DNA of 64,000 bases from Naegleria gruberi. Its lineage: Eukaryota. Positions 5,532-51,100 of this stretch are shown piece after piece. The notes beneath the pieces are model-generated. The model had not been told where the DNA came from. It worked only from the letters and a program-made list of their open reading frames with translations, and made no database searches. The stretch lies in the NCBI GenBank assembly GCA_000004985.1, contig GG738930.1; one strand, given 5' to 3'. The translations under genes were made by a program, and so were the position numbers. Each line of letters starts with the position of its first letter. Within the stretch, counting starts at the first letter, position 1.

Positions 5532-5546
5532 GATAAATCCATTCAC

Positions 5547-13160: not shown

Positions 13161-14882
13161 ATGACATCGAATAACTCTTCATCCTCGAATGGTGGGGATA
13201 GCACTTCTACTACTTCAGAAACCACAACGACAGAGAGAATGAATTCTCCACAACAAATGTCATTAACTGTCAACAATAATCAGCCGCAAGCCAGTGTTTC
13301 AACACAGTGTGAAATCGAATTGGCAGATATAAAGGATAACCAGATTTCTCCTAACTCTGCTGAAGAACATATTAAATCCTCTGAAACTAGAACACCAAGT
13401 GATTGTGATGACGTCTTATCCACTACTGCTGAAGTTAACTTTGATTGTCAGTCACCAATGAAAAAGCCAACATCAAAGTGTGATTTTGAAATTCCAACTT
13501 CACCACAATCGTTGAATCCAGCTGGATCCAGCACCACTAACCTAATTTCTGATGATAAGCTTGTGAAAAAGTTACCAAACAATAGCAAGTCAGTCACAAT
13601 GATAACACAAGAAGAACAAGCATTCGATACCAAAACTGTAAATAGTTACCAAAGCAAAGCAACCTCTAAGACATCAAAGACATCAGGCGGGTTTTCAGTT
13701 GCCACTTGTTGTGGTACTGTGGAGCTAAACTGTATTCGTGTCTTGTCAATTCTAGGTATGATGATCAACATTATTGCCTTTGTTGCCATGGCAGTTGTGA
13801 TTTCAGTTGCCTTCTCCGTCTCCACTACTAACGAAACTGAATTGTTGATACTCAGAGCTGATGCTAACTTGATGAGTGAAGTAGCTGCTTCTTCACTAAA
13901 GATTGCCGTGTATTCTAATCAAACCGAACCCTATATTTCCAGATGGAAAACAACTAAAGATAAGGCCGTTGCAGCTATTGCTTCGATCGTTGATGCCCTC
14001 CCACCCGATGTTTTCCTCAGACTTCTCAATGGTTCTACATACTTCAACTCTAGCGCAATTCCAGTCAATCCCTATGAACAACAAGTGGTAAACCTGTTAA
14101 AATCAGGCAAGCAGAAGGAAGCCATCACTCTCATTGAAAGTAAGAATTATACTTCCTACTCTCTTGGATGGAAGAATGTGGTTTCTAACTTGTTGACCTA
14201 TGCAAAGGAATTGGCAAGAAACAAGAATGATTACTTGTTGACCTCTTCAAGTGTCAACATGGGTCTCATTGGTTTTTCAATTCTGCTGGTTGTTCCAATT
14301 GTGTTGGCCATCTTTATTATGGCCATCAATAGAGAAGGTGTTTCTCAAAAACGTCTCAAAAAGGCAAATGCTGTCATGTTACTCGACACACTGCAGGATC
14401 ATGCACTCAAAGCACTCTTTAGAAAGCATTGTGAAACTGAAAGATGTTTGGAATCATTTGAATTTTTGGAAAAGATTCATTACTATAAGGAATTCTGTAA
14501 TGACTCATTCGATATTCAAGTCAAACTTTATGACAGTAGTCACCCAACACAAACAGAAAAGAAGTCCCTCGAATCCGATCTCAAGGAAGTTGAACAAAAG
14601 AAGTATGAGGTTGCCTTTGAAATTTTCACAGAATTTATTGATGAACATGGAGAAAAGGCACTTGTTGTCACAAGCCATTTGTGTGAAGATGTCAAGATGA
14701 AATTGGATCATTTCAATACAGGACAATCAGACCATTTGAGTGACGAACTATTCGACAAACTTCAAACTGAAGTTGCCATCCACTTGTTGGATTGCCATGC
14801 CAGATTCAAGCAAAGTATTGCATTCCAAAAGAAGATGAAAATTCAAGATATTCGTTCCAAAACCAAGATTACAGGTAAATGA
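13161..14882 (+). CDS. two-TM membrane protein with C-terminal RGS (regulator of G-protein signalling) domain
   Basis: ATG at 13161. Ser/Thr-rich N-terminus. TM1 is LSILGMMINIIAFVAMAVVISVAFSV, followed by a ~150-aa loop with N-glycosylation sequons, then TM2 GLIGFSILLVVPIVLAIFIMAI. RGS signature: ALFRKHCETERCLESFEFLEKIHYYKE ... EIFTEFIDEHGEKALV ... LFDKLQTEVAIHLLDCHARFKQS. Confidence 0.65.
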   Translation: MTSNNSSSSNGGDSTSTTSETTTTERMNSPQQMSLTVNNNQPQASVSTQCEIELADIKDNQISPNSAEEHIKSSETRTPSDCDDVLSTTAEVNFDCQSPMKKPTSKCDFEIPTSPQSLNPAGSSTTNLISDDKLVKKLPNNSKSVTMITQEEQAFDTKTVNSYQSKATSKTSKTSGGFSVATCCGTVELNCIRVLSILGMMINIIAFVAMAVVISVAFSVSTTNETELLILRADANLMSEVAASSLKIAVYSNQTEPYISRWKTTKDKAVAAIASIVDALPPDVFLRLLNGSTYFNSSAIPVNPYEQQVVNLLKSGKQKEAITLIESKNYTSYSLGWKNVVSNLLTYAKELARNKNDYLLTSSSVNMGLIGFSILLVVPIVLAIFIMAINREGVSQKRLKKANAVMLLDTLQDHALKALFRKHCETERCLESFEFLEKIHYYKEFCNDSFDIQVKLYDSSHPTQTEKKSLESDLKEVEQKKYEVAFEIFTEFIDEHGEKALVVTSHLCEDVKMKLDHFNTGQSDHLSDELFDKLQTEVAIHLLDCHARFKQSIAFQKKMKIQDIRSKTKITGK

Positions 14883-15213
14883 ATAAGTTGATTTTTATCA
14901 AAACCTTCCTTGGTATTGTATCATGAATAAACCAAATTACCGAAATTACTTTTTGGTTTTATTCTTGGCGAGTGGTATTCGATTATTTCGAATCGTCGGC
15001 ACTCTTGTCAATTATTTGCAGTACTGTCATTTGTAAATGTTTCTGCACATTATTGATCATCCATTGTCAGGTGTTTCAAGTGAAAAGTCAAATGAATGAA
15101 ATGTTATCTAGATCACTAACCAAACCTTGCAACAGAATCTGGTACCAACAAGATCACCAGGGATTCCAATAACTCTTGACAAGCGAAGTTTTTTTCATCA
15201 TTTTTCATTCATT

Positions 15214-18200
15214 TCAATTATATATACTTTGAGTAATCCAAGTATCCAATGGAATATTGATAGGACTTGAATATTTATCCAATGCAATCTCTTCTCCTTT
15301 CATTAGATTTTCAGAAAAGAGAGATTTTGATTTTTCACTTCTCAGTTCCTTGTAAGTTGAGTTTGAGATGTGAACTTGATTGACCTTTCCTGTTGCTTCC
15401 ATCATTTGAGCAATTTCAACTGCAGGTCCAAATAAATCATATGTTCGTTTCACTTTTCCAACAACTGCTGCGATCACATCATTTCCAGTGTGAATTCCCA
15501 ATCGAACTGATAATAAATGATCAGTATTTGTGTAGGTAGTATATTGTTTCATGTTTCGAATCATTGCAAGACCTCCCTTTACAATGTTATCTGCATGATT
15601 GGTCTCACTCTTCGAAAGACCTGAAGCAACAAAGTAACAATCACCAATGGTCTTGATTTTCTCCAAATTCAGTTCAGTACAAACATTGTCAAAGAGTGTG
15701 AAAATGTCATGTAAGATTTTGACAACATCTTTTGGTGATTTTCTTGAAGAGAAATCAGTGAAACCAACCATATCACAATATAACATGGAGCAGGAATCGA
15801 TTGTGTCAATGACAGTCTGGCCCATGCTCAATCTTTCTGCAATACTTTTTGGGAAAATCTTTTCTGCAATTCTTGTCATGTGTTCTTCTGGTGTTGACAA
15901 TGATTTGTAATCTCTGAGATAGGCCACATAGGATGGTTTTCCATCAGTGACAATTTGTGAAATTTTAATTTCCAAAGAAATGATCTTTCCAGATTTGGTT
16001 TCTCCCTTCACTTTCCGTGTTACATCCACAACGCCATTTTCTCTACTTCGACATCTATCCAAATAACTGTCATGTTTCAACCTATCTCTACTGTTGCAAA
16101 TAATCTTGACATTTCTTCCAACAATTTCCTTTGGTTCATATCCAAATGTAGATGAAGCTGCCTTGTTAAAAACTTGAATAATTCCCTTGTCATTAATTGT
16201 AATGACTGGAATGATACTTAGATCAGTAATAGCATGTTTGAAAGAGTTTGTAACAGCTGCCTGATGTTCATTATCAATTTCCTTGAAGAATTTCAAATAG
16301 ACACAAAAGTGAATTTCTTGAAGTTTCTTAATTGGAATAATTCTTGCAGTTACAATGAAGAATTGTTTAAGCATGGTAGCTTTGGCTCTGAGATATCGTT
16401 CCTCTGAGAGTGATTTCCTTCTTGTTGCTTTTTCTTCCTCACTCAATTGACTATATGGCTTAATATCATCGAGATAGTTCTGATCAGATCCAATTTTATC
16501 TGCCTTCAGAGTGCTATTCTCTGTTGGACCCAAGAATTCATACATGGCTTGATGAAGTTCAACGGAGGCATCATCCAAGAATAATTCACTAACATGTTCT
16601 CCCATTGCACTGAATGAATAAACTCCAAATAAATCCTCTGCTTCCTTATTAAGAAACTCAATGGATCCAAGTTTGTCAAAAACAAGAACTGGAAATCCAC
16701 AATGAACAAATTGATGAACTAAATAATTCAATTGAGAGAATTCTACCTGATGTGTAAATCCAACTTCATCACAAATTTCTCTCTGACTCAATACAGTAGT
16801 ATCTGTTGTTGACCTGATTGAAATTTCACTTGTTGTATCAGAAAAGTTTCCATCAGATTCTTCCAATCGTTGCTTCAATTTTGAAAGGAATCTTTGATTA
16901 ATTGACTGTTTGTATCCTTGATCATTTCTTGACATTCCTCTATCCACAGGAGGTGGTCGTTCCTGAGTGGTGTTTGTTGTTGGTGTTGGTCTTTGTTTTG
17001 GTACAGAACTAGCTTCTCTCATATAGACACTACTCTCTCTTTGAAGTGCCCCTCTTGGAAGCTCAGAAGATCTCGTCACTACACTATTTTCTCTTTGAAG
17101 TTGACCACGAGGTCTTTCAGAAGATGACGACTGATTCCTGACAGAGTTTTCTCTCTGTAAAAATCCTCGAGGTGCTCCACTTGTCATGATGCTGTTCTCT
17201 CTCTGGAGAGTTCCTCTTGGATTTTGAGAGGCAATCATCAGACTATTCTCTCTTTGTAAAACAGAGGTTGCTCTCCTATTAGAGGAAGTCATTTCAGTAA
17301 TTGGTGTCTTTTCTGTTGTTGAGGTAAAAACTGAATTTTCTCTCTGGAGAGTTCCTCTCTTAATCATTTGTGAATTTGATGAAACCAGAGGAGGAGGAGG
17401 AGCCTGTTGTTGAAGAATATCCTTTGTAACAAGTAAGGAAGATCCCTCTCTGATGAGTATTCCTTTTGGTTTTGATGACTCGCCTGCTATTGAATTATCT
17501 CTAATCAATCGAAAACTTGGCTTTAAATCCACACCCTCCAGAATATTCCGAGAACTTGATGTATTGATTGATGAGGAATCGAGTGGAGCTGATGATACAG
17601 AGCTTGTTGGTTGCTGTTGATTTTGCTTCTTTGCCAAGAATTCTGCAAAAGCTAGTTGATGTTCATCGAGTAATTGTTGAGTGGAGGAGCTTATCTCAAC
17701 ACTGCCTCCACTACCAGAATTCATGTTATTCTTTGGAGTTGGTTTGAAATTCACACCAGAGAGAATATTCCTCGAACTCTGACTATTCAATGTGCTTTTT
17801 GGTGATGAAGAATTTTGAAGAGAAATTGCTGATGGTGAGGAAACTTCAGGTTGAGCTTCTTGTATGGTTATCTTTTTAATCATGGTACCTCCAGAGCCAG
17901 CCAGTATATTCCTCGAGCTCTGGCTATTCAATGCGCCACCTGTTGTTGCTATCTGTTCCTTCTTTTGTGCAATGTATTCCCTTAATTCCCGATCATCATC
18001 ATCATTGCTTAATTGAATTTTTCTGGATGATGAAGAGAAGCCATTGGCATTCAGTGGAATCTTTCCATTGTTTGCCATCATGATGGAAGAATTGGCAAAT
18101 ATATTTCTCGAACTCTGATGATTGAATTGTGCTGATGATTGTTGAGCTGTTGTTGGAGTTGTTTTCATCTTTTGAGCCAAAAACTCCTGTAAGGCCTTCT

Positions 18201-18231
18201 CATCTTCATTGTATCCATACAAATCGTCCAT
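15214..18231 (-). CDS. PAS-domain adenylyl/guanylyl cyclase (class III), paralogue 1
   Basis: Catalytic motifs MLYCDMVGFTDFSS, KIKTIGDCYFVASGL, GIHTGNDVIAAVVG and FGPAVEIAQMMEATG. PAS/PAC region upstream. The track start at 18369 is TTG; the ATG at 18231 (MDDLYGYNEDEKALQEFLAQK) aligns with the paralogue start MTNYDDDDDDKALQEFLAKK. Confidence 0.85.
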   Translation of the reverse strand: MDDLYGYNEDEKALQEFLAQKMKTTPTTAQQSSAQFNHQSSRNIFANSSIMMANNGKIPLNANGFSSSSRKIQLSNDDDDRELREYIAQKKEQIATTGGALNSQSSRNILAGSGGTMIKKITIQEAQPEVSSPSAISLQNSSSPKSTLNSQSSRNILSGVNFKPTPKNNMNSGSGGSVEISSSTQQLLDEHQLAFAEFLAKKQNQQQPTSSVSSAPLDSSSINTSSSRNILEGVDLKPSFRLIRDNSIAGESSKPKGILIREGSSLLVTKDILQQQAPPPPLVSSNSQMIKRGTLQRENSVFTSTTEKTPITEMTSSNRRATSVLQRENSLMIASQNPRGTLQRENSIMTSGAPRGFLQRENSVRNQSSSSERPRGQLQRENSVVTRSSELPRGALQRESSVYMREASSVPKQRPTPTTNTTQERPPPVDRGMSRNDQGYKQSINQRFLSKLKQRLEESDGNFSDTTSEISIRSTTDTTVLSQREICDEVGFTHQVEFSQLNYLVHQFVHCGFPVLVFDKLGSIEFLNKEAEDLFGVYSFSAMGEHVSELFLDDASVELHQAMYEFLGPTENSTLKADKIGSDQNYLDDIKPYSQLSEEEKATRRKSLSEERYLRAKATMLKQFFIVTARIIPIKKLQEIHFCVYLKFFKEIDNEHQAAVTNSFKHAITDLSIIPVITINDKGIIQVFNKAASSTFGYEPKEIVGRNVKIICNSRDRLKHDSYLDRCRSRENGVVDVTRKVKGETKSGKIISLEIKISQIVTDGKPSYVAYLRDYKSLSTPEEHMTRIAEKIFPKSIAERLSMGQTVIDTIDSCSMLYCDMVGFTDFSSRKSPKDVVKILHDIFTLFDNVCTELNLEKIKTIGDCYFVASGLSKSETNHADNIVKGGLAMIRNMKQYTTYTNTDHLLSVRLGIHTGNDVIAAVVGKVKRTYDLFGPAVEIAQMMEATGKVNQVHISNSTYKELRSEKSKSLFSENLMKGEEIALDKYSSPINIPLDTWITQSIYN

Positions 18232-19354: not shown

Positions 19355-19421
19355 TTTTTATTTTAATATTAAATTAAATAATCAAATAATTAGCTCCTTC
19401 TATTTCTAGAAACAAAGTTTC

Positions 19422-20303
19422 CTAATTTGTAATCAAATCGTACAAAATGAAACCTCCAGAAATTGCCAAAGAGGTAGCAATACTAATCTTCCATCCTCTG
19501 AAAAATCCAGAAATTCCTTCTTCCTTATAAGTTTTTTGGAAACAATCCAAAGTTCCAGAAAAAGTTTTTTCCTTCTTGTCAGCTTGAACTTGAAGTTTTC
19601 TTTCGACAGTTTCCAATGGATAGCAGATGAGAAAGTTGGAAAATGAAATGAGTTGGGCGATTAGGAATTTGGCCCTGATGTCGTTTGGATATGGATTGAC
19701 ACTTGTCAAAATGTCATACATGACAAAATAGGAAAATCTGTATACGATTAATTTGATTAAGGAAGCGTCAAGACCAACAAATAGAGCAGAATAACCATTG
19801 GTTTCAATAGTCTTCTTTAAAACATCGATTGGACCTGAATATTGTCTCTTGCCAATTGTGTCAAATGCCAATTTAAATCTGACATAGGCTAATGGTCTTG
19901 TAAGAGCTTCCATGGCAGTTCCTATCAAAGCTCCACCAACTACATTTCTCAAATAGTACTTTCCCAAGTCAGTGCTTGGATCAAATTTTGGGATTATATT
20001 GAAAATCTTCATTAACATTGGAGAAAACATGCCAGTCAAGATATTTTTCAATAATTCAACAGGAAATCCTCTGAACCAACTGGAAATTCCTTGATCTTGT
20101 TTAATTTGTTGCAGGATTGTAATGGTATTCAACTGTTTATCACCAATTTGCTTGGCCAATTGATGATCGGCTTGGTGAGATTGAAGAATGCATGCGGCTG
20201 TGAAAAGAGGACAAATTGGCAATTTAACAAGTAGACTGGACGAAACCTTTGCTACAATACCGACGGTCACCTGTACGAGTGGGCTGTTGTTGCTTGTTTG
20301 CAT
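19422..20303 (-). CDS. mitochondrial carrier family protein (ADP/ATP-carrier-like)
   Basis: 293 aa with ATG at 20303. Threefold ~100-aa repeat structure with six hydrophobic helices. The C-terminal motif FSGTLDCFQKTYKEEGISGFFRGW resembles the AAC signature. Confidence 0.7.
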   Translation of the reverse strand: MQTSNNSPLVQVTVGIVAKVSSSLLVKLPICPLFTAACILQSHQADHQLAKQIGDKQLNTITILQQIKQDQGISSWFRGFPVELLKNILTGMFSPMLMKIFNIIPKFDPSTDLGKYYLRNVVGGALIGTAMEALTRPLAYVRFKLAFDTIGKRQYSGPIDVLKKTIETNGYSALFVGLDASLIKLIVYRFSYFVMYDILTSVNPYPNDIRAKFLIAQLISFSNFLICYPLETVERKLQVQADKKEKTFSGTLDCFQKTYKEEGISGFFRGWKISIATSLAISGGFILYDLITN

Positions 20304-20322
20304 TTTTTTGTTTTGACCGACG

Positions 20323-21733: not shown

Positions 21734-21738
<5 letters not shown>
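20323..21738 (+). CDS. LINE ORF1 protein (coiled-coil nucleic-acid chaperone-like)
   Basis: 471-aa ORF beginning 20 nt inside the element. The N-terminal heptad region is LLADRIFVLERAIKTYQKENNNLRDYLQQLV. Confidence 0.6.
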
Positions 21739-21770
<32 letters not shown>

Positions 21771-21772
21771 TC
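21736..21772. repeat. (AAT)n microsatellite, ~12 units
   Basis: Directly visible trinucleotide run at the ORF1/ORF2 junction of the LINE; it encodes a poly-Asn tract. Confidence 0.9.
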
Positions 21773-22020
21773 ACAAATGCAAATAATAGAATTGATAAAA
21801 TTGAAAAAAGTATTATAGATTTAACTCAACAGCTCATGCTCACTAATAACAATATTAATAATATAGTTGAAATACTTAAACAAGCAAATATTATTAGACC
21901 TAATAATGATAACAAAATGTTAAATAATCCTAATAATAAGATGTTAGAGGATTCTAATAATAGTAATAATAATATGTTAGATGATGAATTAAGTTCATCA
22001 TCTAATCCATCTACTCTACC

Positions 22021-25705: not shown

Positions 25706-25756
25706 ATTTACAAATTCAAAGAGAATCTGAATAGATTCGTTATTATTGCAATAAAA

Positions 25757-26456: not shown

Positions 26457-26457
26457 T

Positions 26458-29933: not shown

Positions 29934-29983
29934 NNNNNNNNNNNNNNNNNNNNNNNNNNNNNNNNNNNNNNNNNNNNNNNNNN
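29934..29983. other. assembly gap (50 N placeholder)
   Basis: It separates the truncated hydrolase gene from the truncated cyclase paralogue; both are incomplete at this junction. Confidence 0.95.
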
Positions 29984-31976
29984 CTTCTGGTGTTGACAAT
30001 GATTTGTAATCTCTAATATAAGCAATGTATGAAGATTTACCATCTTTTAGAATGTGGGATACTCTGATTTCTACCGAGATGATCTTGCCTGACTTGGTTT
30101 CTCCCTTCACTTTCTTTACCATATTGAGAGTATTCTTATCTTTGGTTTTACATTTTTCCAAATAGCTGTCATGTTTGAGTCTATCCTTCTTATTACAAAT
30201 AATTTTGACATTTCTTCCAACAACTTCTTTAGCTTCGAAACCAAAAGTGGATGAGGCAGCCTTGTTAAAAACTTGAATAATTCCCTTGTCATTGATTGTA
30301 ATAACTGGAATAGTAATCATTTCTGTTACTGCTTGATTCAGTGAGTTGGTCATTTGTGAATATTTGCCATTTTCTGCTTGTTGAGCAAACCTCATGTATA
30401 TACAAAAGTGAGTTTCTTGTAATTTTGATATTGGGATAATCTTGGCGGATACTGAAAAGAATTGCTTGATTGTTGTTGCTTTGGCTCTCAAAGTTCTTAA
30501 CTGTGAAAGGGCCCTTCTTCTCTCCAGTTTTTCTTCCTCACTGATTTGATTGTAAGGTCGAATATCATCGAGATAGTTCTGGTCTGAACCAATTTTATCT
30601 GCCTTCAGAGTGCTATTCTCAGTTGGACCCAAGAATTCATAAATTGCCTGATGTAGTTCAACAGAAGCATCATCCAAAAACAATTCACTCACATGTTCCC
30701 CAAGAGCACTGAATGAAAAGACTCCAAATAAATCCTCGGCTTCCTTATTCAAATATTCTATTGAGCCAAGTTTGTCAAAAACAAGAACTGGAAATCCACA
30801 AGTCATGAATTGAGACACCAAATGATTCAACTGTACAAATTCTACCTGATGTGTAAATCCAACTTCTTCATTAATTTCTCTATCACTCAGTAGGGCAGTT
30901 TCTGTCGACCTCACAGACATAACAGAAACTTCGCTCACTGTATCAGGAAAATCATCAAATCCTTCATTCTTCGTTTTCATTTTGGAAAGGAATCTCTGAT
31001 TAATTGACTGTTTGTAGCCTTGATCGTTTCTTGACATTCCTCTTTCGAGTGGAGGTCTTGCTCTGGGCACAGATTGTGATCCCTCCCTCATCATTAAACT
31101 GTTTTCTCTCTGTAGTGGCCCTCTCTTTGTTGGAACATCAGACAAGGGTTTATCAGATAGCTCATATTCATTATTCTTCCTAGTAATAAAACTACTATTC
31201 TCTCTTTGTAACATTCCTCTCCTAGGAGCAGATGGTGCTGTTGTCATTGTAGAATTACCTCTCAATAGAGGAGGTGGTCTCGATAGTGTGCCATCGTTAT
31301 TCGTCAGCAGAGAAGAACCTTCCCTCCTTAACATTCCTCTTGGTTTTTGGGAGATAGTAGAATTTTCTCTTGTCAGTTTTGGAGCTACTCTCAACGATGA
31401 AGAAACTCCAACTTTAAGCATTGCAGAGGTATCCAAACCTTCAAATATGTTCCTAGAACTTGCTGTATTTTTCGACGATACCTCATACATGGATTGTTTT
31501 TTAGACATGAACTCATTAAGTGCTTTTTGATCTTCGTCTTCCTTCTCCTTTCTAGCAGAGGCAGGTGTTTCTGTTATTGTAAATGGAGCAAGAAAGTCTG
31601 AACCACCTACTCCATCATTATTTGGAATCCGTGTTGGTACTTTAGGTTTTACTGGACTAAACCCTACCAATACATTTCTCGAACTTTGAGTATTGAAAGC
31701 TCCAGGAGACGGTTTTGACTTTTTTGCTTGGAGAAACTCTTGGAGAGCCTTCTCATCCTCATCTTCATCATCCTTATTGTTTTGTTTTGTTGGGGAGGTT
31801 AGAGGTTTTTTAGGAGAAGTACTTTTAGAAAGAGCAGAAGCATCAAACGAAGCAAATATATTCCTCGAACTCTGATGATTAAAATTGGAAGAGGGTGAAT
31901 GAAGGTTTGCTGTCTTCTTCTTGGCTAGAAATTCCTGTAGAGCCTTATCGTCATCATCGTCATCATAATTTGTCAT
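29984..31976 (-). CDS. PAS-domain cyclase paralogue 2 (N-terminal regulatory region and PAS domains only; catalytic domain missing in the gap)
   Basis: ATG at 31976 (MTNYDDDDDDKALQEF...). It is collinear with paralogue 1 through ...YIRDYKSLSTPE, where the N run begins. The nucleotide sequence at 29984-30060 matches 15889-15965. Confidence 0.8.
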
Positions 31977-42389: not shown

Positions 42390-44872
42390 TTATTCCAAAA
42401 TGTTGAGAGTTGGTGTTTGAGCTTGTTGTTCACATAATCGAAGTAAATGTTGGGTTGGAAGGTCATTTGGGTTGACTTGTTGATATTCTCGAAATAGAGG
42501 AATGGCTTCTTCAAATTTACCTTCAAACAGAAGAGAGCAACCTTGGTTGTAAACTCCCCATTTTAAATATCTTTCCTTCTTATTGAAATGTGAATGTAAA
42601 TCTTTGGTCGAGTTAAGTAAATGAGTAGAGATTGGAAACTTACCATCATCAGTTTCTTGTTTCATTTCAATTGAATCTCCCAATTCATATAATAAACAAT
42701 CTTTTGTCAATGAATTTGACATAGAAACACTTCCAATTTCCCAATTTTCTTGGTTGAAATCATCTAGAGAGGAAAAGAAATAATCCTCCCTTAATTCTCT
42801 TCTATCCAGGAATCTAGTCTCACACCTAGTGTGGCAATATTGCTTGATGTGCTGTGTGATAATGATTGGAACTTTGAGTTTCTTGCCAAATCTTATTATT
42901 TGATCCAAATTATGTCTCGTGCTTGAAAAAATTGTAAAGTGCTTAATGTCTTTAGTTCCAATATTTCCACAAAATGTTTTTTGAGCACAAATAGCAAATC
43001 TGAAATTAATCAATTCACAAATTTCCTCCCTCAATAGTCCACTTTCTCTCCACTTGTTTTCTTTCACGTTGGTTAACTTTTCTTGTAAAAGTTGAGCGCT
43101 GGCAACTGCTTTTTCTTCGTGATTGTTCTGGTTAATAGTAGTATTATAAGCAATAGTTAAAATATCATTCTCAAAGTTGACCAAATGGCCAGATGTAGTC
43201 CTAATCACTGTGTCCACTTGGCTAAATAAATCTCCCAACAATGAAACTAGATGAGTTGGGTTTCCTTCTAAGGATAACAACCATTCATTCAATCCTTCAA
43301 TGTACATTTGATTGATACTAATCTTTCTTGGTTCCAAATAGAGAGAAAATTTGCATTTCAATTTAGATGATTTTTTCTTACTGTCCAAAATATTAGATAA
43401 TTTTGAAGCTTTCCCTCCTTCAAGTGAATTATCTTCAATGCTTGAAAATGGTTGACTTTTTTCCAATTCAACAGAATCTGAAGTCATTGTTCTAGGTGAA
43501 AAGGAATCCAACGAAAGTCTAGTTGCAGTTTCTTGTTCTCCATTTNNNNNNNNNNNNNNNNNNNNNNNNNNNNNNNNNNNNNNNNNNNNNNNNNNNNNNN
43601 NNNNNNNNNNNNNNNNNNNNNNNNNNNNNNNNNNNNNNNNNNNNNNNNNNNNNNNNNNNNNNNNNNNNNNNNNNNNNNNNNNNNNNNNNNNNNNNNNNNN
43701 NNNNNNNNNNNNNNNNNNNNNNNNNNNNNNNNNNNNNNNNNNNNNNNNNNNNNNNNNNNNNNNNNNNNNNNNNNNNNNNNNNNNNNNNNNNNNNNNNNNN
43801 NNNNNNNNNNNNNNNNNNNNNNNNNNNNNNNNNNNNNNNNNNNNNNNNNNNNNNNNNNNNNNNNNNNNNNNNNNNNNNNNNNNNNNNNNNNNNNNNNNNN
43901 NNNNNNNNNNNNNNNNNNNNNNNNNNNNNNNNNNNNNNNNNNNNNNNNNNNNNNNNNNNNNNNNNNNNNNNNNNNNNNNNNNNNNNNNNNNNNNNNNNNN
44001 NNNNNNNNNNNNNNNNNNNNNNNNNNNNNNNNNNNNNNNNNNNNNNNNNNNNNNNNNNNNNNNNNNNNNNNNNNNNNNNNNNNNNNNNNNNNNNNNNNNN
44101 NNNNNNNNNNNNNNNNNNNNNNNNNNNNNNNNNNNNNNNNNNNNNNNNNNNNNNNNNNNNNNNNNNNNNNNNNNNNNNNNNNNNNNNNNNNNNNNNNNNN
44201 NNNNNNNNNNNNNNNNNNNNNNNNNNNNNNNNNNNNNNNNNNNNNNNNNNNNNNNNNNNNNNNNNNNNNNNNNNNNNNNNNNNNNNNNNNNNNNNNNNNN
44301 NNNNNNNNNNNNNNNNNNNNNNNNNNNNNNNNNNNNNNNNNNNNNNNNNNNNNNNNNNNNNNNNNNNNNNNNNNNNNNNNNNNNNNNNNNNNNNNNNNNN
44401 NNNNNNNNNNNNNNNNNNNNNNNNNNNNNNNNNNNNNNNNNNNNNNNNNNNNNNNNNNNNNNNNNNNNNNNNNNNNNNNNNNNNNNNNNNNNNNNNNNNN
44501 NNNNNNNNNNNNNNNNNNNNNNNNNNNNNNNNNNNNNNNNNNNNNNNNNNNNNNNNNNNNNNNNNNNNNNNNNNNNNNNNNNNNNNNNNNNNNNNNNNNN
44601 NNNNNNNNNNNNNNNNNNNNNNNNATAACAAACACACTCATTAATGTCAAACTCGAAATTACTATAAGCATACAATTTCTTATAGAAATTTGGCAATTGC
44701 TCGCCGATAAGAAGAAGACGGAAGAGTTTGTATCCGAATTATTGTATTTTCTATTCCAATCATTGTCTTCATAACTAAATCTCCCATTAGAATAAATATC
44801 ATGTTGAGGTAAATCAAAGGCAAGAGGTAAAACCTTACGAGAGGACGTTGATGATCGCCTTGTGAGTGGCAT
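42390..44872 (-). CDS. cyclase-homology-domain protein with degenerate catalytic residues plus C-terminal TPR-like region; interrupted by a 1079-N gap
   Basis: The C-terminal part (42390-43545) aligns to a class III cyclase domain (HLVSLLGDLFSQVDTVIRTTSGHLVNFENDILTIAY; FRFAICAQKTFCGNIG; FTIFSSTRHNLDQI) but lacks the first metal-binding Asp and the N/R transition-state residues. A TPR-like helix pair follows. The N-terminal fragment is at 44625-44872. Confidence 0.5.
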
Positions 44873-45116: not shown

Positions 45117-48100
45117 TTAAGCTTCTGTTTTTGAGGGAGAGATTGTTGGTGAAGGGTTGAGATTGTTGGTTGTTTCTGGTAAATTTTGTTGGGTGTTGGA
45201 TGTTTGATTGAGTTTGAGAACAGTCAATTCGTCAACTGAACTTGATTCTAATAGATTTGTTGGAGATTGGGAGTCTATCTTGAGTTCTTGAATTTCTTGA
45301 ACTGTTGGCAATGGGTTTGCATGATGTTTGTCCTTTAACAGGTATGTTTTCATTTCACCCTTTCCTTTGACATAGATTGATTCTCTTTCTTCAAATTCAT
45401 ATCCCAAATCGAATACTCTTTCATAGGTTGCTCTTGAAATTTGAATTCTTCCTGGAACACCTGTTGATTCCATTCGAGAGGCTGTGTTGATTGTATCACC
45501 CCACAAATCGTAAGCAAACTTTTTAGTTCCAATAACACCTCCAACACATGGTCCTGTGTGCATTCCAATTCTCAAATTCACTTCCTTTCCAAATTTAATA
45601 TTGAAATCTCTCAAGAATGAATAAACTGAGATTGCAAACTTTAACATTCTCTCAGGGTGGTCAGATGATTTTGAAGAGTGAGTTCCTGAAACTGCAAAGT
45701 AAGCATCTCCAATAGTTTTGATCTTGTCAATCAAATATTTCTCAGTCAACTTGTCAAATTCATTCACAATTGTGTTCAACATCATCACCAATTGATCTGC
45801 TTCCATTCCTGAAGACATTTTGGTGAAACCAACCATATCAGAAAAGAAAATCGTAACATCTGGGAACTTTTCTGCGATATAGGTTTCTCCTTGTTTCAAT
45901 CTATTAGCAACTGGCAATGGCAAAATATTCAACAATAACTCTTCACTTTTCTTCTTTTCCTCACCTAGCAACAATGAATGTTTCTTCAATTGAGTAACAT
46001 CCTTCACAAAACAGGACAAGATTGGTTTACCAAGGTACTGACTGATAGAAATCGACACAAATGCAGGGAAAGTGGTCTTGTTCTTTCTCAATCCTGTCAC
46101 TTCGAATGAATCTGCTGAAACACCTGTTTCCTCATTGCAAACTTTCATGGAATCAATAAGAACTGTAATCTTTTCCACATTCAATTCTGTAAATAGAGTT
46201 TCTAATCGAATTCCCAAAATCTCTTCCTTCTTATAACCAAACATATCTTCACTGGAAGGATTGAACATTACAACCTCTCCCTTTGGATTACAGATAATGC
46301 TTCCATCTACACCACTATTCAAAATTGATCTTGTCATGTCCATATTTTCATCATCCACTTCAAGTCCAGACATGACTGCATTTCTTCTCTTTATCAATTT
46401 CTTCAATTTTTGAGCTGAGGATGGAACTCTATAGTTTAAAATATAGTCAATCATATCTGGTATCATGTCAACAACATCTTTAGGAATATAATTCAACATT
46501 ATTCTTAATGATTGAATTTCTCTAAAGAGATCCATCATCGCTAGATAGGAAAGCCAACCAAACACAAGAACTGCTAATGAGCCCAGAATGGTTGAAATGA
46601 TTGCCAAGTAATCTTCTGATTGTTTTGTATTCTGTACATATGTGCTTGTGAAATCGTAAATAAGCTGAACTGCAACCAGAGCTGGATAGTACAGATATGT
46701 AAAGTACTGATCAGTTTCGTATGATTTTGTGTAAAACCTTGCTTTTAAATCCTCATTAATCTCTGCTGCTAGATCTTGAAAAGAGTGAATCAACTTTTCT
46801 AAACCATAACATGAAACTCTTGTCTTCACCAAACTGTCTGGGAGAATATCCAAAGCCGGACCACTTGTGTAATTAACCATTGAAGTATTTGAATCACACT
46901 TATAGGCAAGTAATTTGTCAATATCAGAATATTTTCCAAAAAGAGAATTGGAATAGCCCAACTCTGGAGCTCCTCTTACAGCATAAGACCAGGACATTGT
47001 AATATTCATTAATTGCTTTTGATTCCGCAAGTGTAACTCATCGGGAGTGTAATCTGACATATTTGATGCAATAATCATCTCGGCCAACTTGAAATTCACA
47101 GAAGTTACTGAACTAAGAACGTAGTTTACAGAAGCAGCAGTTTTCATTGTAATAAACTGATTCTGTTTGTTGAGTTGGAATTCGTATATCTGAATAGGAC
47201 TCACCAATGCTACTACAAAAAATGTGATTGCAGTGTATATGATAATCTTATTCTTTGGACTTAGTACAGTTTCTCCGTAATCTCCAGTTTTAGTAGATGT
47301 CAAAGTGTGATATAGCTTACCAACCTCATCCTTTTGAATCTTTCTAAAGATATGAAAAATGACCTGTCTTATTTGAACAAAGTATTGACTCAACATGGAT
47401 ATATAGAACCCAACCAATACAAAATAGCATCCCAATAGAATTCCTGAACTCCATAAAAACACTTGTGAGAGGGTATCTGCTCTTTCCATGGAAAATGTCA
47501 AAAAGTATTGGCAAAACCCATCAAATGCATCGGTCATCGTCTCTCTATTGTACAGGAAGAACAAGACTGGGAAGTTTGTGGCAGTGTTATTCAATTGAAC
47601 AGGATAAGAAAACTGACTGATAACTGTTGGAGCTTGAGCTGCAAACATTGCAATGAAATCCAACACTGACACATTCATGGTTGTGTAAACCTGAGAGGAT
47701 TCTCCAACTACCTGCTTGTTTGGAATTTTGTAAGTCCACTTTTGAGAGATGAAGTCATCTGTAATAGATGGAAAGAATGACTCTGTGGATGCACTCATCA
47801 CATTCTTAACTAAATTTAAAACATAGTTCGCTTGCAGTGTTGCCAAATGCTGAACTGGTCCAGCAGTGGTTTCGTTCAAGTACCTGTATCTTGCTTGCAA
47901 TGTTCTAACATGATTTGCCATAATGCTTGGAGCACCAGCTATTGAGCAAATCTTTTCCTCTAGTGCTGTTCTACTCGTAAACTCTGATGAAACAATCAAA
48001 CTAAGAATCAACATGAATAGAATAATGAGAATGGAAATTACAATAAATGGAAGAAAAAGCATAAAGAATGATTTCCTGCGCTCTGGCATGTTGATAGAAT

Positions 48101-48687
48101 TTCTGTAGAATGCTTCCTCCCTCATAGTTTCTTCCATTCTTGCACTGATTGAATCCCAATTATCCACAACTTCATCGAATGAAACAGCATTCTTCATGGC
48201 AGCATTGGACTTACTGTGCTTCATTAATTGAGATGTAGAAGTAGCATAGGGAAGAACTCTATTTTCTGGTTGTTTTTTCTTAGTTGACTTTGCTTTCTCT
48301 TCCTCAATTTGGTTGGCTTCTTCATAAAGTTCTGCAGCCATTTCCAGTTCAAATTTGAAAGTTTCTAAGAAGTGAGCATATGCTCTCATTAAAGTCTTGT
48401 TATTCATATTGGAACTCATACTATTCTTGTATGCATTTTCACAATAATGTGTAAGATTGTGAGCTTGTCTGTTGATGTCCTCTAATTTTGTCTCTGAAGG
48501 ATTTTCGCTTGAAAGCTCTTTAAAGAAATCCTGATGTAGATTAATGATCTTTGCTTGTCTCTTCTCAAGTTTTTCCAATATTTTTTGAAGTTCAAAACTC
48601 AAGGCATCACCATCTTGTGATTGCACTTCAATTTCCTTACTTCTCAAATAGAAATGGAATAGTTGGACGAAACTTGGACTATGTCTC
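45117..48687 (-). CDS. receptor-type adenylyl/guanylyl cyclase: TM1, ~430-aa extracellular region, TM2, PAS, class III cyclase domain (first codons lie in the gap)
   Basis: Catalytic motifs VTIFFSDMVGFTKMSS, KIKTIGDAYFAVSG, GMHTGPCVGGVIG and YDLWGDTINTASRMEST. TM helices FLPFIVISILIILFMLILSLIV and LAIISTILGSLAVLVFGWLSYL. The ORF continues open (…RHSPSFVQLFHFYLRSKEIE) into the N run at 48688. Confidence 0.85.
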
Positions 48688-49877
48688 NNNNNNNNNNNNN
48701 NNNNNNNNNNNNNNNNNNNNNNNNNNNNNNNNNNNNNNNNNNNNNNNNNNNNNNNNNNNNNNNNNNNNNNNNNNNNNNNNNNNNNNNNNNNNNNNNNNNN
48801 NNNNNNNNNNNNNNNNNNNNNNNNNNNNNNNNNNNNNNNNNNNNNNNNNNNNNNNNNNNNNNNNNNNNNNNNNNNNNNNNNNNNNNNNNNNNNNNNNNNN
48901 NNNNNNNNNNNNNNNNNNNNNNNNNNNNNNNNNNNNNNNNNNNNNNNNNNNNNNNNNNNNNNNNNNNNNNNNNNNNNNNNNNNNNNNNNNNNNNNNNNNN
49001 NNNNNNNNNNNNNNNNNNNNNNNNNNNNNNNNNNNNNNNNNNNNNNNNNNNNNNNNNNNNNNNNNNNNNNNNNNNNNNNNNNNNNNNNNNNNNNNNNNNN
49101 NNNNNNNNNNNNNNNNNNNNNNNNNNNNNNNNNNNNNNNNNNNNNNNNNNNNNNNNNNNNNNNNNNNNNNNNNNNNNNNNNNNNNNNNNNNNNNNNNNNN
49201 NNNNNNNNNNNNNNNNNNNNNNNNNNNNNNNNNNNNNNNNNNNNNNNNNNNNNNNNNNNNNNNNNNNNNNNNNNNNNNNNNNNNNNNNNNNNNNNNNNNN
49301 NNNNNNNNNNNNNNNNNNNNNNNNNNNNNNNNNNNNNNNNNNNNNNNNNNNNNNNNNNNNNNNNNNNNNNNNNNNNNNNNNNNNNNNNNNNNNNNNNNNN
49401 NNNNNNNNNNNNNNNNNNNNNNNNNNNNNNNNNNNNNNNNNNNNNNNNNNNNNNNNNNNNNNNNNNNNNNNNNNNNNNNNNNNNNNNNNNNNNNNNNNNN
49501 NNNNNNNNNNNNNNNNNNNNNNNNNNNNNNNNNNNNNNNNNNNNNNNNNNNNNNNNNNNNNNNNNNNNNNNNNNNNNNNNNNNNNNNNNNNNNNNNNNNN
49601 NNNNNNNNNNNNNNNNNNNNNNNNNNNNNNNNNNNNNNNNNNNNNNNNNNNNNNNNNNNNNNNNNNNNNNNNNNNNNNNNNNNNNNNNNNNNNNNNNNNN
49701 NNNNNNNNNNNNNNNNNNNNNNNNNNNNNNNNNNNNNNNNNNNNNNNNNNNNNNNNNNNNNNNNNNNNNNNNNNNNNNNNNNNNNNNNNNNNNNNNNNNN
49801 NNNNNNNNNNNNNNNNNNNNNNNNNNNNNNNNNNNNNNNNNNNNNNNNNNNNNNNNNNNNNNNNNNNNNNNNNNNNN
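48688..49877. other. assembly gap (1190 N)
   Basis: It hides the 5' end of the cyclase gene at 45117-48687 and the 3' two-thirds of its upstream paralogue. Confidence 0.95.
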
Positions 49878-51100
49878 CAGTCAGCTCTCTCCATAGAAGT
49901 ATCCAAAAATGATCTACAAAACCAATCAAAAGCCTCAGACATTGTCTCTCTATTGTAGAGGAAGAAAAGAACTGGAAAATTTGTTGAAGTGTCGTTCAGT
50001 TGGGCAGGAGAGCTCAATTGAGAAATTGCTCTACCAGCATGATTTTCAAACATGTTTAAAAATTCCAAAACAGATACATTCATGGTAGAATAGAGTTGTG
50101 TAGATTCTCCTACAACTTGTTTGTTTGGAACCTTGTACAAAAACTTTTGGGCAATAAAATCTTCAGTAACAGCTGGGAAGAATGATGAGGAAGATGCACT
50201 CAATACATTATTAATCAATGTTGTAACATAGCTGGTCTGAACAGTAGCTAAGGCATGAGCGGTACTTGCTGAAGATTCATTCAAATATCTATACCTAGCT
50301 TGAATAGAACGAATGTGATTGGCCATAATGCTTGGAGCACCAGCTATTGAGCAAATCTTTTCTTCTAACACTGTTCTACTGGTAAATTCTGACGAAAAGA
50401 CCAGAGACATTGTTAATAAAATTAATAAAACAAGGAATGAAACAATCACAAACGGTAAAAATGTGAAATAATAGGATTTTCTGTGTTCTGGAGTGTTGAT
50501 TGAATTTCTATAGAAGGCTTCTTGTTTCATTGATTCTTCCATTCTTGCACTGATCGAATCCCAGTTATCTACAACTTCATCGAATGATACTCCATGTTTC
50601 AGAGTGTCTGATTTCCTTCTTTTCATAAGTGATGACTCTTCTGAGGCACTGGTATAAGGAACTACTCTATTACTTTTTGAATGAGACTGCTTGTTGGTTT
50701 TGGATTTCTCTTCCTCAATTTGATTAGCCTCCTCATATAATTCATTGGCCACTTCAATCTCAAATCTAAATATCTCCAAAAAGTATGCGTAAGCTCTCAA
50801 CAGGGTCTTGTTGTTCATATTGGTATACATGCAATTCTTGTATGCATTTTCACAAAATATTATCAAATTATTGGATTTTCTGTTAATCTTTTCAAGTTTG
50901 TCCTCAGAAGGATTTTCACTGGAAAGCTCTTTGAAAAATTCCTGGTGCAATGCCAGTATCTGAGATTGTTTCTTATCGAGTCTCTCTAATAATTTTTTAA
51001 CTTCATAACTAACATTAGCATAATTCTCAGAGTTGGCTTCAATCTCTTTGCATCTCAAAAAGTAATGGAAAACTTGAACGAAATTTGGGTTTTGTTTCAA
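49878..51100 (-). CDS. receptor-type cyclase paralogue (N-terminal ~400 aa only; remainder in the gap)
   Basis: Collinear with the N-terminus of the 45117-48687 gene (KEIEANSE.../KEIEVQSQ..., LHQEFFKELSSENPSE, TM helix, SRTVLEEKICSIAGAPSIMANH). The track start at 51100 is TTG. Confidence 0.75.

What the first reader, a model, noticed from the sequence alone, without database searches (positions are those of the whole stretch)
13161..51100. Dense concentration of cyclic-nucleotide and G-protein signalling genes
Within ~45 kb there are two PAS-cyclases (15214-18231, 29984-31976), two tandem receptor-type cyclases (45117-48687, 49878-51100), one degenerate cyclase-TPR protein (42390-44872) and two membrane RGS proteins (13161-14882; 57256-59766 just beyond). 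This is a lineage-specific expansion of class III cyclases with mixed architectures, not a single conserved locus. Only a few protist lineages have such expansions (reported for Naegleria, trichomonads and ciliates), and this supports the taxonomic inference.
Basis: partly seen in the sequence, partly recalled or inferred. Interest (0 to 1): 0.6.

Follow-up and report, generated by a model that had tools for sequence, protein, structure and literature searches.

The report
Naegleria cyclase and RGS gene neighbourhood
This is an ordinary stretch of the published Naegleria gruberi genome in which members of two gene families already known to be hugely expanded in this amoeba (cAMP-making cyclases and G-protein regulators) lie close together, mostly because of two old local gene duplications.

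Summary
The window is Naegleria gruberi NEG-M: four ORFs match its annotated proteins exactly. Only two genes have a cyclase catalytic domain above the Pfam threshold (15214-18231 and 45117-48686). Two others (29984-31976 and 49878-51100) are cut by assembly gaps and are called cyclases only by paralogy. The "degenerate cyclase-TPR" gene is a sub-threshold pseudo-cyclase. Both RGS proteins are real: one has 2 TM helices, the other is a 7TM-RGS.

The density comes from two old local duplications with synonymous sites saturated or nearly so, set against a known genus-wide expansion (at least 81 cyclases; about 108 RGS proteins in N. fowleri). The signalling genes are interspersed with unrelated genes. 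Nothing indicates a functional module.

New details:
- The "receptor-type" genes belong to a heterolobosean family of about 1600 aa (multi-TM, TPR_TmcB, PAS, cyclase).
- The public 1602-aa model fuses the two tandem copies across a gap.
- The soluble PAS-cyclases carry a FixL-type heme-PAS domain with the proximal His conserved.
- Their catalytic domain lacks the transition-state Asn and Arg, like the C1 domain of mammalian cyclases.

The finding as stated is already known; the heme-PAS observation is a modest lead.

The parts
13161..14882 (+). 2-TM RGS protein, 573 aa. TM helices lie at about aa 189-224 and 362-395, around a loop of about 140 aa. The RGS domain is aa 409-557 (nt 14385-14831).
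   Evidence: Pfam RGS 34.8 bits. Hydropathy. Exact match to XP_002669195.1, 'RGS domain-containing protein'. It has ERCLES in place of EFSEEN.
15214..18231 (-). Soluble PAS-PAS-cyclase, 1005 aa. The N-terminus is disordered and carries repeated motifs. PAS-A is nt 16537-16698. PAS-B, the FixL-type heme-PAS, is nt 15910-16236. The cyclase homology domain is nt 15325-15807.
   Evidence: Pfam. All PDB matches of PAS-B are heme-PAS proteins, with BjFixL at 62 bits. The His200, Arg206 and Arg220 equivalents are conserved. The catalytic Asn is Glu and the Arg is Met; the best match is the AC9 C1 domain. Exact match to XP_002669217.1.
29984..31976 (-). Paralogue of the PAS-PAS-cyclase, cut off after PAS-B by the assembly gap 29934-29983. 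PAS-A is nt 30642-30794 and PAS-B is nt 30009-30332. No cyclase domain is present in the sequence.
   Evidence: DNA homology to 15885-16954 is 76% over 1085 nt and ends exactly at the gap.
42390..43544 (-). C-terminal part of a gene with a degenerate cyclase-like domain (about nt 42867-43277) followed by one TPR-like hairpin (nt 42462-42551). The upstream part is hidden by the gap 43546-44624.
   Evidence: Pfam 16.7 bits, below the cut-off. CyaC E 0.085. hhalign E 0.0075. Custom HMM 20.3 bits against at most 8.6 for 2000 shuffles. Lys, Asn and Arg are lost. Only the TPR part is confident in AF2. The annotated fragment P0128 carries no precomputed Pfam domain.
44625..44872 (-). Possible first exon of the degenerate cyclase-like gene. 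It is an 82-aa ORF starting at an ATG and ending in a TM-like segment at the gap edge.
   Evidence: The link to 42390-43544 is inferred and cannot be tested across the gap.
45117..48686 (-). TmcB-type membrane cyclase, copy B. TPR_TmcB is nt 48288-48638. Four TM helices with two extracellular regions follow. PAS is nt 45990-46307 and the cyclase domain is nt 45333-45875. The reading frame is open to the gap edge, so the N-terminal multi-TM domain is missing.
   Evidence: Pfam. All six canonical catalytic residues are present with a Lys/Asp pair, indicating ATP specificity. Its PAS is nearest to FixL, but the His position is Ile. Hydropathy.
49878..51115 (-). TmcB-type membrane cyclase, copy A, middle part. 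TPR_TmcB is nt 50699-51052, followed by TM1 and the start of the extracellular region. The PAS and cyclase parts are lost in the gap 48688-49877.
   Evidence: Pfam. 65% aa identity to copy B over 394 aa. 70% nt identity, ending at the gap edges.
51100..52782 (-). N-terminal domain of copy A, 561 aa with about 8-9 TM helices. It is joined to 49878-51115 through a 1-nt frame break at about 51100-51115.
   Evidence: Its homologues are the N-termini (aa ~20-530) of proteins of about 1600 aa from N. gruberi, N. fowleri, N. lovaniensis and Willaertia, which carry TPR_TmcB, PAS and Guanylate_cyc. The junction alignment has the same length as the homologues if one base is restored. AF2 pLDDT is 78.
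57256..59766 (+). 7TM-RGS protein, 836 aa. It has a signal-like N-terminus, an extracellular region of about 350 aa, seven TM helices (nt 58387-59190) and a C-terminal RGS domain (nt 59248-59484).
   Evidence: Pfam RGS 33.2 bits. Hydropathy. Matches RGS10 and RGS4, with EFSMEN and EVN conserved. Exact match to XP_002669200.1.
48688..49877 (.). Assembly gap of 1190 N between copies A and B. About 4.2 kb of coding sequence should lie here. The public model P0001 splices across it.

Best explanation
The region is ordinary nuclear DNA of Naegleria gruberi NEG-M. It is not a signalling operon or a dedicated locus. Seven independent genes from two superfamilies that are massively expanded in Naegleria (class III cyclases and RGS proteins) lie among unrelated genes. 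These include beta-amylase, a DnaJ protein, an ADP/ATP carrier, a non-LTR retrotransposon, a YchF ATPase, a GH5 hydrolase, a kinase, an aminotransferase, an F-box protein and a chromodomain protein.

The density arises from two ancient local duplications, both retained under purifying selection, plus a mild neighbour effect:
- the PAS-cyclase pair, about 12 kb apart on the same strand;
- the TmcB-type pair, in tandem.

How the parts most likely work (inferred from sequence):
1. The TmcB-type genes encode multi-pass membrane receptors of about 1750 aa. Their domain order is about 8-9 TM helices, a TPR, four TM helices with two extracellular regions, a PAS domain and a cyclase domain. The catalytic domain has all six canonical residues with a Lys/Asp pair, so they should be homodimeric adenylate cyclases.
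2. The soluble PAS-PAS-cyclases carry a FixL-type heme-PAS domain and probably sense O2 or another gas. Their catalytic domain keeps both metal-binding Asp residues and the Lys/Asp pair but lacks the transition-state Asn and Arg. As homodimers they should be weak or inactive, or they need a partner.
3. The 7TM-RGS protein is a receptor-like GTPase activator for G-alpha subunits. This has been shown for N. fowleri homologues.
4. The 2-TM RGS protein and the degenerate cyclase-like gene are divergent and probably regulatory.
For: Identity
- Four ORFs are exact matches to annotated N. gruberi NEG-M proteins.
- Two further annotated models map to the window.

Domains and context
- Domain content of the signalling genes.
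- The intervening genes are unrelated.

Age and origin of the duplicates
- TmcB pair: 66% aa identity, pS 0.76, pN 0.20. PAS pair: 73% aa identity, dS about 1.05, dN 0.18.
- At the DNA level only the genes themselves are repeated.
- The PAS pair are closest to each other.

Family background
- At least 81 cyclases in Naegleria and a 40.9 Mb genome (PMC9928731).
- 28 7TM-RGS and 79 other RGS proteins in N. fowleri, with GAP activity shown for 7TM-RGS domains (PMC9283941).
- The TmcB-type architecture is present in five of the six full-length homologues scanned; the sixth, a 1400-aa metagenome protein, lacks a Guanylate_cyc match.

Residues
- Catalytic residues.
- Heme-PAS residues.

Orthologous locus
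- The N. lovaniensis neighbourhood keeps the PAS-cyclase with the RNB and YccF/Na_Ca_ex genes but has no RGS gene.
Against: - Even with duplicates collapsed, three cyclase lineages in 38 kb is nominally unlikely: P about 1e-4 per window, or 0.07-0.17 windows expected genome-wide.
- Two of three N. lovaniensis PAS-cyclase loci have a second cyclase-domain gene within 10 kb, and one also has a G-alpha gene. Some non-random clustering of signalling genes cannot be excluded.
- No expression data or whole-genome census was available.
- Two catalytic domains are inferred, not seen.
- The biochemical roles are inferred from sequence only.
Confidence: 0.8

Rival explanations
1. The genes form a functional signalling neighbourhood, kept together by selection or co-regulation. 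Membrane RGS proteins, G-alpha subunits and cyclases would act in one pathway.
For: The enrichment is nominally significant. The convergent pair RGS1 and PAS-cyclase 1 are 332 bp apart. In N. lovaniensis, locus L003 has a PAS-cyclase next to another cyclase-domain gene and 3.8 kb from a G-alpha gene, and L001 has a second cyclase 9 kb away.
Against: The signalling genes are separated by about 20 unrelated genes and a retrotransposon, on both strands. The positional orthologue locus in N. lovaniensis has no RGS gene and a different set of neighbours on one side. L002 has no signalling neighbour other than a protein kinase. With roughly 100 members in each family, neighbours are expected fairly often. 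The window was chosen because it looked dense.
Confidence: 0.1
2. There is one giant gene rather than two tandem TmcB-type genes. This follows the public 1602-aa model, or a protein with an internal duplication of the TPR_TmcB-TM-extracellular module.
For: P0001 joins 52782..., copy A and copy B. The gap is stated as 1190 N, far less than the ~4.2 kb or more that two complete genes would need.
Against: All six full-length homologues tested have a single TPR_TmcB, placed directly after the N-terminal TM domain. Copy B aligns with copy A from the very first residues after the TM-domain junction, and its frame is open into the gap. P0001 removes most of the TM helices of the conserved N-terminal domain as an 'intron'. 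Gap lengths in Sanger scaffolds are estimates.
Confidence: 0.08
3. The apparent paralogue pairs are assembly artefacts, such as uncollapsed haplotypes or misplaced contigs, so the gene density is inflated.
For: Three of the six N-gaps fall inside cyclase genes, and both DNA homology blocks end exactly at gap edges. There is a 1-nt frame break in copy A near a gap.
Against: The copies differ by 24-30% at the DNA level, and synonymous sites are saturated (TmcB pair) or nearly so (PAS pair, dS about 1.05). This is far beyond allelic divergence. Their N-terminal regions differ in repeat number. Misplacement of contigs within the scaffold cannot be excluded, but it would not remove the genes from the genome.
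Confidence: 0.04

Closest known systems
Cyclase expansion of Naegleria. The N. gruberi genome paper (Fritz-Laylin et al. 2010, Cell) could not be read here; I recall about 108 cyclases from it. The pangenome paper PMC9928731 reports at least 81.
   Same: Same organism and same families. These very genes are in the public annotation. Membrane-bound and PAS-linked class III cyclases in many paralogues.
   Different: The papers that could be read here do not describe the local arrangement, the TmcB-type architecture, the heme-PAS signature or the Asn/Arg loss.
7TM-RGS proteins of N. fowleri (PMC9283941) and Arabidopsis AtRGS1
   Same: 57256-59766 has an extracellular region, seven TM helices and a C-terminal RGS domain with the canonical Glu-Asn and Asn contact motifs. 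N. fowleri 7TM-RGS domains are GAPs for G-alpha subunits.
   Different: No EGF, lectin or GPS motif was detected in its extracellular region. The second RGS protein has only 2 TM helices and a divergent motif.
FixL and DosP heme-PAS oxygen sensors
   Same: PAS-B of the soluble cyclases matches BjFixL at 62 bits. The proximal His200, Arg206 and distal Arg220 equivalents are conserved, and the His is invariant in every family member aligned at that position. The roles of these residues are described in PMC10765370 and PMC10468136.
   Different: The output domain is a class III cyclase homology domain rather than a histidine kinase or an EAL/GGDEF domain. The protein is eukaryotic. Heme binding is untested. 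The paralogue has Lys at both Arg positions.
C1 domain of mammalian membrane adenylyl cyclases and the alpha subunit of soluble guanylyl cyclase
   Same: The PAS-cyclase domain scores 100 bits to AC9 C1 against 57 bits to C2, and 107 bits to sGC alpha against 69 bits to beta. It keeps the two metal-binding Asp residues but lacks the transition-state Arg, as C1 does.
   Different: It also keeps the Lys/Asp purine-specifying pair and has Glu at the Asn position. No C2-like partner was identified. It is a single-domain protein, presumably dimeric.
Trichomonas vaginalis transmembrane cyclase expansion (PMC2914791)
   Same: A large lineage-specific family produced by gene duplication, accompanied by degenerate copies.
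   Different: The Trichomonas duplications are described in that paper's abstract as recent. Here synonymous sites are saturated or nearly so, and the architectures differ.
Pfam PF25474 TPR_TmcB, named after Dictyostelium TmcB
   Same: Copies A and B match the TPR module at 47-53 bits.
   Different: The relation to Dictyostelium TmcB itself was not tested. Here the module is part of a PAS-cyclase receptor.

Membership tests
Class III nucleotidyl cyclase (Pfam Guanylate_cyc, PF00211) | Catalytic-domain match above the curated cut-off of 21.9 bits | tested here: met
   15214-18231 scores 150.5 bits and 45117-48686 scores 202 bits.
Class III nucleotidyl cyclase, gene 42390-43544 | Catalytic-domain match above the curated cut-off | tested here: inconclusive
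   16.7 bits, below 21.9. The same region matches CyaC at E 0.085 and a cyclase profile by hhalign at E 0.0075. A custom HMM gives 20.3 bits against at most 8.6 for 2000 shuffles. The AF2 model is uninformative. This is a remote homologue and is not fileable as a cyclase.
Class III nucleotidyl cyclase, genes 29984-31976 and 49878-52782 | Presence of a catalytic domain | not testable with these tools
   The expected position of the domain lies in the N-gaps 29934-29983 and 48688-49877. It is inferred only from paralogues.
Catalytically competent homodimeric class III adenylate cyclase | Two metal-binding Asp, a Lys/Asp specificity pair, and the transition-state Asn and Arg, all in one chain | tested here: met
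   Copy B (45117-48686) has FSDMVGFT, KTIGDAY, YDLWGD and NTASRME.
Catalytically competent homodimeric class III adenylate cyclase, soluble PAS-cyclase 15214-18231 | Transition-state Asn-Arg pair | tested here: not met
   The sequence is VEIAQMME where the consensus is VNxASRME, so Asn is Glu and Arg is Met, in a gap-free alignment. The same loss occurs in all 12 relatives aligned. The Asn-Arg pair is the norm (PMC4215837). One active enzyme lacking the Asn is known, but none lacking the Arg was found.
RGS domain proteins (PF00615) | Domain match above the cut-off of 23.9 bits | tested here: met
   34.8 and 33.2 bits.
7TM-RGS (AtRGS1 and N. fowleri type) | Seven TM helices followed by a C-terminal RGS domain with G-alpha contact residues | tested here: met
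   57256-59766 has seven hydropathy peaks between aa 390 and 657 and an RGS domain at aa 677-755 with EFSMEN and EVN. TM prediction is by hydropathy only.
7TM-RGS, gene 13161-14882 | Seven TM helices | tested here: not met
   Only two TM helices. The motif is ERCLES, with Asn replaced by Ser.
FixL-type heme-PAS sensor | Proximal His on the F-alpha helix, proximal Arg206 and distal Arg220 (BjFixL numbering) | tested here: met
   KHDSYLDR...VTRKV aligns to RHDSYISR...IGRIV. The His is invariant across the family. In the TmcB-type PAS the His position is Ile, Leu or Val.
FixL-type heme-PAS sensor | Actual heme binding and a ligand-dependent switch | not testable with these tools
   This needs recombinant protein and spectroscopy.
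Heterolobosean TmcB-type receptor cyclase | N-terminal multi-TM domain, one TPR_TmcB, a 4-TM region, PAS and Guanylate_cyc in one protein of about 1600 aa | tested here: met
   Copy A supplies the first half and copy B the second half, with a 394-aa overlap. Five of the six homologues scanned show the full order; the sixth lacks a Guanylate_cyc match.
Conserved functional gene cluster | The same set of signalling genes kept together in related genomes | tested here: not met
   The N. lovaniensis positional orthologue keeps the PAS-cyclase with the RNB and YccF/Na_Ca_ex genes, but has no RGS or TmcB-type gene within 10 kb. Only 10 kb on each side could be seen.

The most novel reading that the evidence does not exclude
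The soluble PAS-PAS-cyclases of Naegleria, two of which are in this window, may be heme-based gas (O2, NO or CO) sensors built on a FixL-type PAS domain. Their output would be a conserved, non-canonical cyclase domain resembling mammalian C1, with Glu and a hydrophobic residue in place of the transition-state Asn and Arg. They would then act either as regulatory half-cyclases that pair with canonical cyclases, or as enzymes with an altered mechanism. Either way, they would link oxygen level to cAMP in an amoeba predicted to switch between aerobic and anaerobic metabolism (that prediction is recalled from the 2010 genome paper, which could not be read here).
Probability: 0.35. Interest if true: 0.6.

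Novelty: already known. Interest (0 to 1): 0.25.

Why it matters
As stated, the finding adds little. The expansion of cyclases and RGS proteins in Naegleria is published, and these genes are already in the public annotation.

Three by-products are useful:
1. Three of the five cyclase-type genes here are broken by assembly gaps, and one public model is a chimera of two genes. Domain censuses based on this assembly will therefore miscount the family.
2. The "receptor-type" cyclases belong to a defined but uncharacterised heterolobosean family, with an N-terminal domain of about 8-9 TM helices that has no match among solved structures.
3. The soluble PAS-cyclases carry the FixL heme-binding signature. 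This gives a concrete, testable candidate for oxygen sensing in Naegleria.

Tried and rejected
- Word-indexed homologue searches were insensitive. The TmcB-type query returned only 7 hits. The degenerate gene returned only its own annotated fragment. The PAS-cyclase query missed its own database entry, which an exact look-up later found.
- N. gruberi gene positions are not in the contig index, so five look-ups failed. No N. gruberi neighbourhood census was possible. N. lovaniensis loci were used instead.
- Single-sequence AF2 of the degenerate gene gave pLDDT 38 and was unusable for the cyclase-like part. hhalign gave only 5% probability.
- Pairwise BLAST of the degenerate gene against copy B gave no in-register cyclase-core match; its one marginal hit (E 0.001) aligned the TPR end out of register.
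- The small cyclase-domain gene upstream of N. lovaniensis P0014 was considered as a possible C2-like partner. It has VNIASR but no recognisable first half of the domain, so this was not pursued.
- The 2010 genome paper is not held, so its cyclase count is cited from memory only. Literature searches for TmcB and for heme-PAS cyclases in Naegleria found no prior description.
- Haplotype or allele artefact was rejected on divergence.

Full report
**Source of the window**

The window has about 35% G+C and six runs of N: 3869-3918, 29934-29983, 37793-38044, 43546-44624, 48688-49877 and 53307-53920. Four ORFs are exact, full-length matches to annotated proteins of Naegleria gruberi strain NEG-M on one 158,571-bp scaffold:
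- the 1005-aa PAS-cyclase, XP_002669217.1;
- the 573-aa "RGS domain-containing protein", XP_002669195.1;
- the 836-aa protein XP_002669200.1;
- an ADP/ATP carrier.

Two further annotated models, P0001 and P0128, map to the window. All the genes are already public.

**Check of the observation**

Pfam confirms the following:
- an RGS domain in 13161-14882 (34.8 bits) and in 57256-59766 (33.2 bits), against a cut-off of 23.9;
- two PAS domains and a cyclase domain (150.5 bits) in 15214-18231;
- TPR_TmcB, PAS and a cyclase domain (202 bits) in 45117-48686.

The other three "cyclases" are weaker.
- 29984-31976 has two PAS domains but ends at a 50-N gap, and no cyclase domain is present. The next gene, a GH5-like hydrolase, starts 64 nt beyond the gap.
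- 49878-51100 has only TPR_TmcB, one TM helix and part of an extracellular region before the 1190-N gap.
- 42390-43544 matches Guanylate_cyc at only 16.7 bits, below the 21.9 cut-off.

For the last gene, the same region aligns in the same register to CyaC (E 0.085) and to a cyclase profile by hhalign (E 0.0075, probability 5%). I therefore accept a remote cyclase-homology domain. The purine-specifying Lys and the transition-state Asn and Arg are gone, and the first metal-binding Asp is Glu, so it is a pseudo-cyclase. A single-sequence AF2 model was uninformative except for the C-terminal TPR hairpins.

**The "receptor-type" cyclases**

The ORF 51100-52782 lies directly upstream of 49878-51100 and is offset by one base. 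An exhaustive HMMER search found 70 relatives. Most match at their N-termini, and many are proteins of about 1400-1800 aa. Six long ones were scanned against Pfam. All six have one TPR_TmcB right after this domain and a PAS domain near residue 1250-1450. Five of the six also have a terminal Guanylate_cyc domain; P0130, a 1400-aa metagenome protein that may be truncated, does not.

The relatives come from N. gruberi (several paralogues), N. fowleri, N. lovaniensis and Willaertia magna. An alignment across the junction shows that restoring one base in AGAAGAG gives exactly the homologues' spacing. The break is therefore a sequencing error or a frameshift in a pseudogene.

Copy B's frame is open into the gap and aligns with copy A from the first residues after that junction. 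Hence there are two tandem genes of about 1750 aa each:
- copy A, 52782 to 49878, has lost its PAS and cyclase end in the gap;
- copy B, 48686 to 45117, has lost its TM-domain start in the same gap.

About 4.2 kb is missing, where 1190 N are written. The public 1602-aa model P0001 is a chimera. It uses the first 175 residues of copy A, skips most of the TM helices, takes copy A's TPR region, and then splices across the gap into copy B.

The N-terminal domain models well (pLDDT 78, about 8-9 TM helices). It has no meaningful match among solved structures. Copy B has all six canonical catalytic residues with a Lys/Asp pair, so I predict a homodimeric adenylate cyclase.

**The soluble PAS-cyclases**

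First, the catalytic domain matches the C1 domain of mammalian AC9 much better than C2 (100 against 57 bits). It also matches sGC alpha better than beta. In a gap-free alignment, the transition-state Asn is Glu and the Arg is Met, while both metal-binding Asp residues and the Lys/Asp pair are kept. The same loss is seen in all 12 relatives aligned: nine named proteins from N. gruberi, N. fowleri and N. lovaniensis plus three metagenome proteins. It is therefore a conserved state, not decay. The Asn-Arg pair is the norm in class III cyclases (PMC4215837).

Second, every PDB match of PAS-B is a heme-PAS oxygen sensor: BjFixL at 62 bits (E 4e-16), RmFixL and E. coli DosP. The proximal His200, Arg206 and distal Arg220 of BjFixL align to identical residues. 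The His is invariant in every family member aligned at that position. The roles of these residues are described in PMC10765370 and PMC10468136. The PAS domain of the TmcB-type cyclases is also nearest to FixL, but it has Ile, Leu or Val at the His position. That contrast makes the conserved His in the soluble family meaningful.

I infer a heme-based gas sensor coupled to a C1-like cyclase domain. Heme binding, and whether the domain is active alone, are untested. I found no description of this in the papers searched.

**The RGS proteins**

57256-59766 has a signal-like start, an extracellular region of about 350 aa, seven hydropathy peaks and a C-terminal RGS domain. The domain keeps the EFSxEN and VN contact motifs. 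It belongs to the 7TM-RGS class, of which N. fowleri has 28 members; tested domains of that class accelerate GTP hydrolysis on G-alpha subunits (PMC9283941).

13161-14882 has only two TM helices around a loop of about 140 aa, and a divergent RGS domain with ERCLES in place of EFSEEN. It has no PDB match at E below 0.01.

**Origin of the density**

Self-comparison of the window shows that only the genes themselves are repeated, and both homology blocks end at gap edges:
- 15885-16954 against 29984-31056, 76% identity;
- 47476-48677 against 49881-51088, 70% identity.

Synonymous sites are saturated in the TmcB pair and near saturation in the PAS pair, while non-synonymous divergence is low:
- TmcB pair: pS 0.76, pN 0.20;
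- PAS pair: dS about 1.05, dN 0.18.

The duplications are therefore old and both copies are under purifying selection. This rules out uncollapsed alleles and rules out recent tandem duplication.

The two PAS genes are closest to each other (73%). They are 43-45% identical to N. fowleri P0010 and N. lovaniensis P0012. P0012 sits next to orthologues of the window's RNB (67% identity), YccF and Na_Ca_ex genes. The PAS-cyclase is thus ancestral to this neighbourhood and was duplicated in the N. gruberi lineage.

The N. lovaniensis locus has another cyclase (Peripla_BP type) 9 kb away, but no RGS gene. Of the two other N. lovaniensis PAS-cyclase loci, one has a cyclase-domain gene and a G-alpha gene nearby and one has nothing.

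**Is it more than chance?**

With 81-108 cyclases in 40.9 Mb (the figure of 108 is from memory of the 2010 genome paper, which is not held), 0.075-0.10 are expected per 38 kb. Three independent lineages give P = 0.7-1.6e-4 per window, or 0.07-0.17 such windows genome-wide. Two RGS genes in 46.6 kb give P of about 0.007.

This is a mild enrichment in a window that was picked because it looked dense. The signalling genes are separated by about 20 unrelated genes and a non-LTR retrotransposon, on both strands. I conclude that this is a paralogue-rich neighbourhood, not a functional locus (confidence 0.8).

**Verdict**

The finding is already known in kind, and I score its interest as low. The most novel reading not excluded is the heme-PAS, C1-like "half-cyclase" oxygen-sensor idea.

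Noticed in passing
window 15910-16236(-) and 30009-30332(-): PAS-B of the soluble PAS-cyclases carries the FixL heme-binding signature: the proximal His plus the Arg206 and Arg220 equivalents. All of its PDB matches are heme-PAS oxygen sensors. The paralogue has Lys at both Arg positions.
   Followed up: yes
window 15325-15807(-): The cyclase domain of the PAS-cyclase has Glu and Met in place of the transition-state Asn and Arg. This state is conserved in all 12 aligned relatives, and the domain scores best against mammalian C1 domains.
   Followed up: yes
window 45117-52782(-): The public N. gruberi model of 1602 aa (P0001) is a chimera of two tandem genes spliced across a 1190-N gap, and it skips most of a conserved TM domain. 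A 1-nt frame break at about 51100-51115 separates the TM domain of copy A from the rest of the gene.
   Followed up: yes
window 29934-29983, 43546-44624, 48688-49877: Three of the six assembly gaps fall inside cyclase-family genes, and paralogue homology ends exactly at the gap edges. This suggests that paralogous cyclase sequence broke the Sanger assembly, and that domain counts from it are underestimates.
   Followed up: partly
window 16950-18231(-) and 31040-31976(-): The disordered N-termini of both PAS-cyclases carry conserved repeated motifs. LQEFLAxKK occurs 3 times; the downstream QSSRNI[FL] occurs 4 and 2 times. (P)RGxLQRENS occurs 3-5 times. The second motif gives many RxxS sites, which may be kinase targets.
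   Followed up: partly
window 20302-25797(+): A non-LTR retrotransposon lies between the two PAS-cyclase paralogues. It has an ORF1-like gene at 20323-21738 and an RVT_1 plus RNase_H ORF at 22361-25705. It is flanked by a 40-nt direct repeat (20302-20341 and 25758-25797, 87.5% identity), possibly a target-site duplication.
   Followed up: no
window 35498-35935(-) and 36211-36609(-): A tandem pair of small ORFs (145 and 132 aa, 72% nt identity) with no Pfam match. This is a third local duplication in the window.
   Followed up: no
window 61086-62393(-): Two adjacent ORFs with 3 and 4 TM segments are separated by a spacer of about 37 nt with GT..AG ends. Together they look like a single 7-TM protein gene, 1.3 kb from the 7TM-RGS gene. 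No Pfam family matches.
   Followed up: partly
window 13161-14882(+): This RGS protein has a TM-loop-TM layout, which I recall as typical of bacterial sensor proteins, and a divergent RGS domain with Asn replaced by Ser in the EFSEEN motif. It may not be a canonical GTPase activator.
   Followed up: partly
L003 8229-9561 and 15958-17337 (N. lovaniensis): The PAS-cyclase P0014 has a 417-aa gene with a partial cyclase domain (VNIASR present, first half not recognisable) 440 nt upstream, and a G-alpha gene 3.8 kb downstream.
   Followed up: partly
window 29-7028(+) and L001 12874-22661: There is microsynteny between N. gruberi and N. lovaniensis: RNB/PAP_assoc exonuclease, YccF and Na_Ca_ex. The window's YccF and Na_Ca_ex ORFs (4050-5531 and 5547-7028) are probably one gene, as they are annotated in N. 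lovaniensis.
   Followed up: partly
[not shown]
   Followed up: yes
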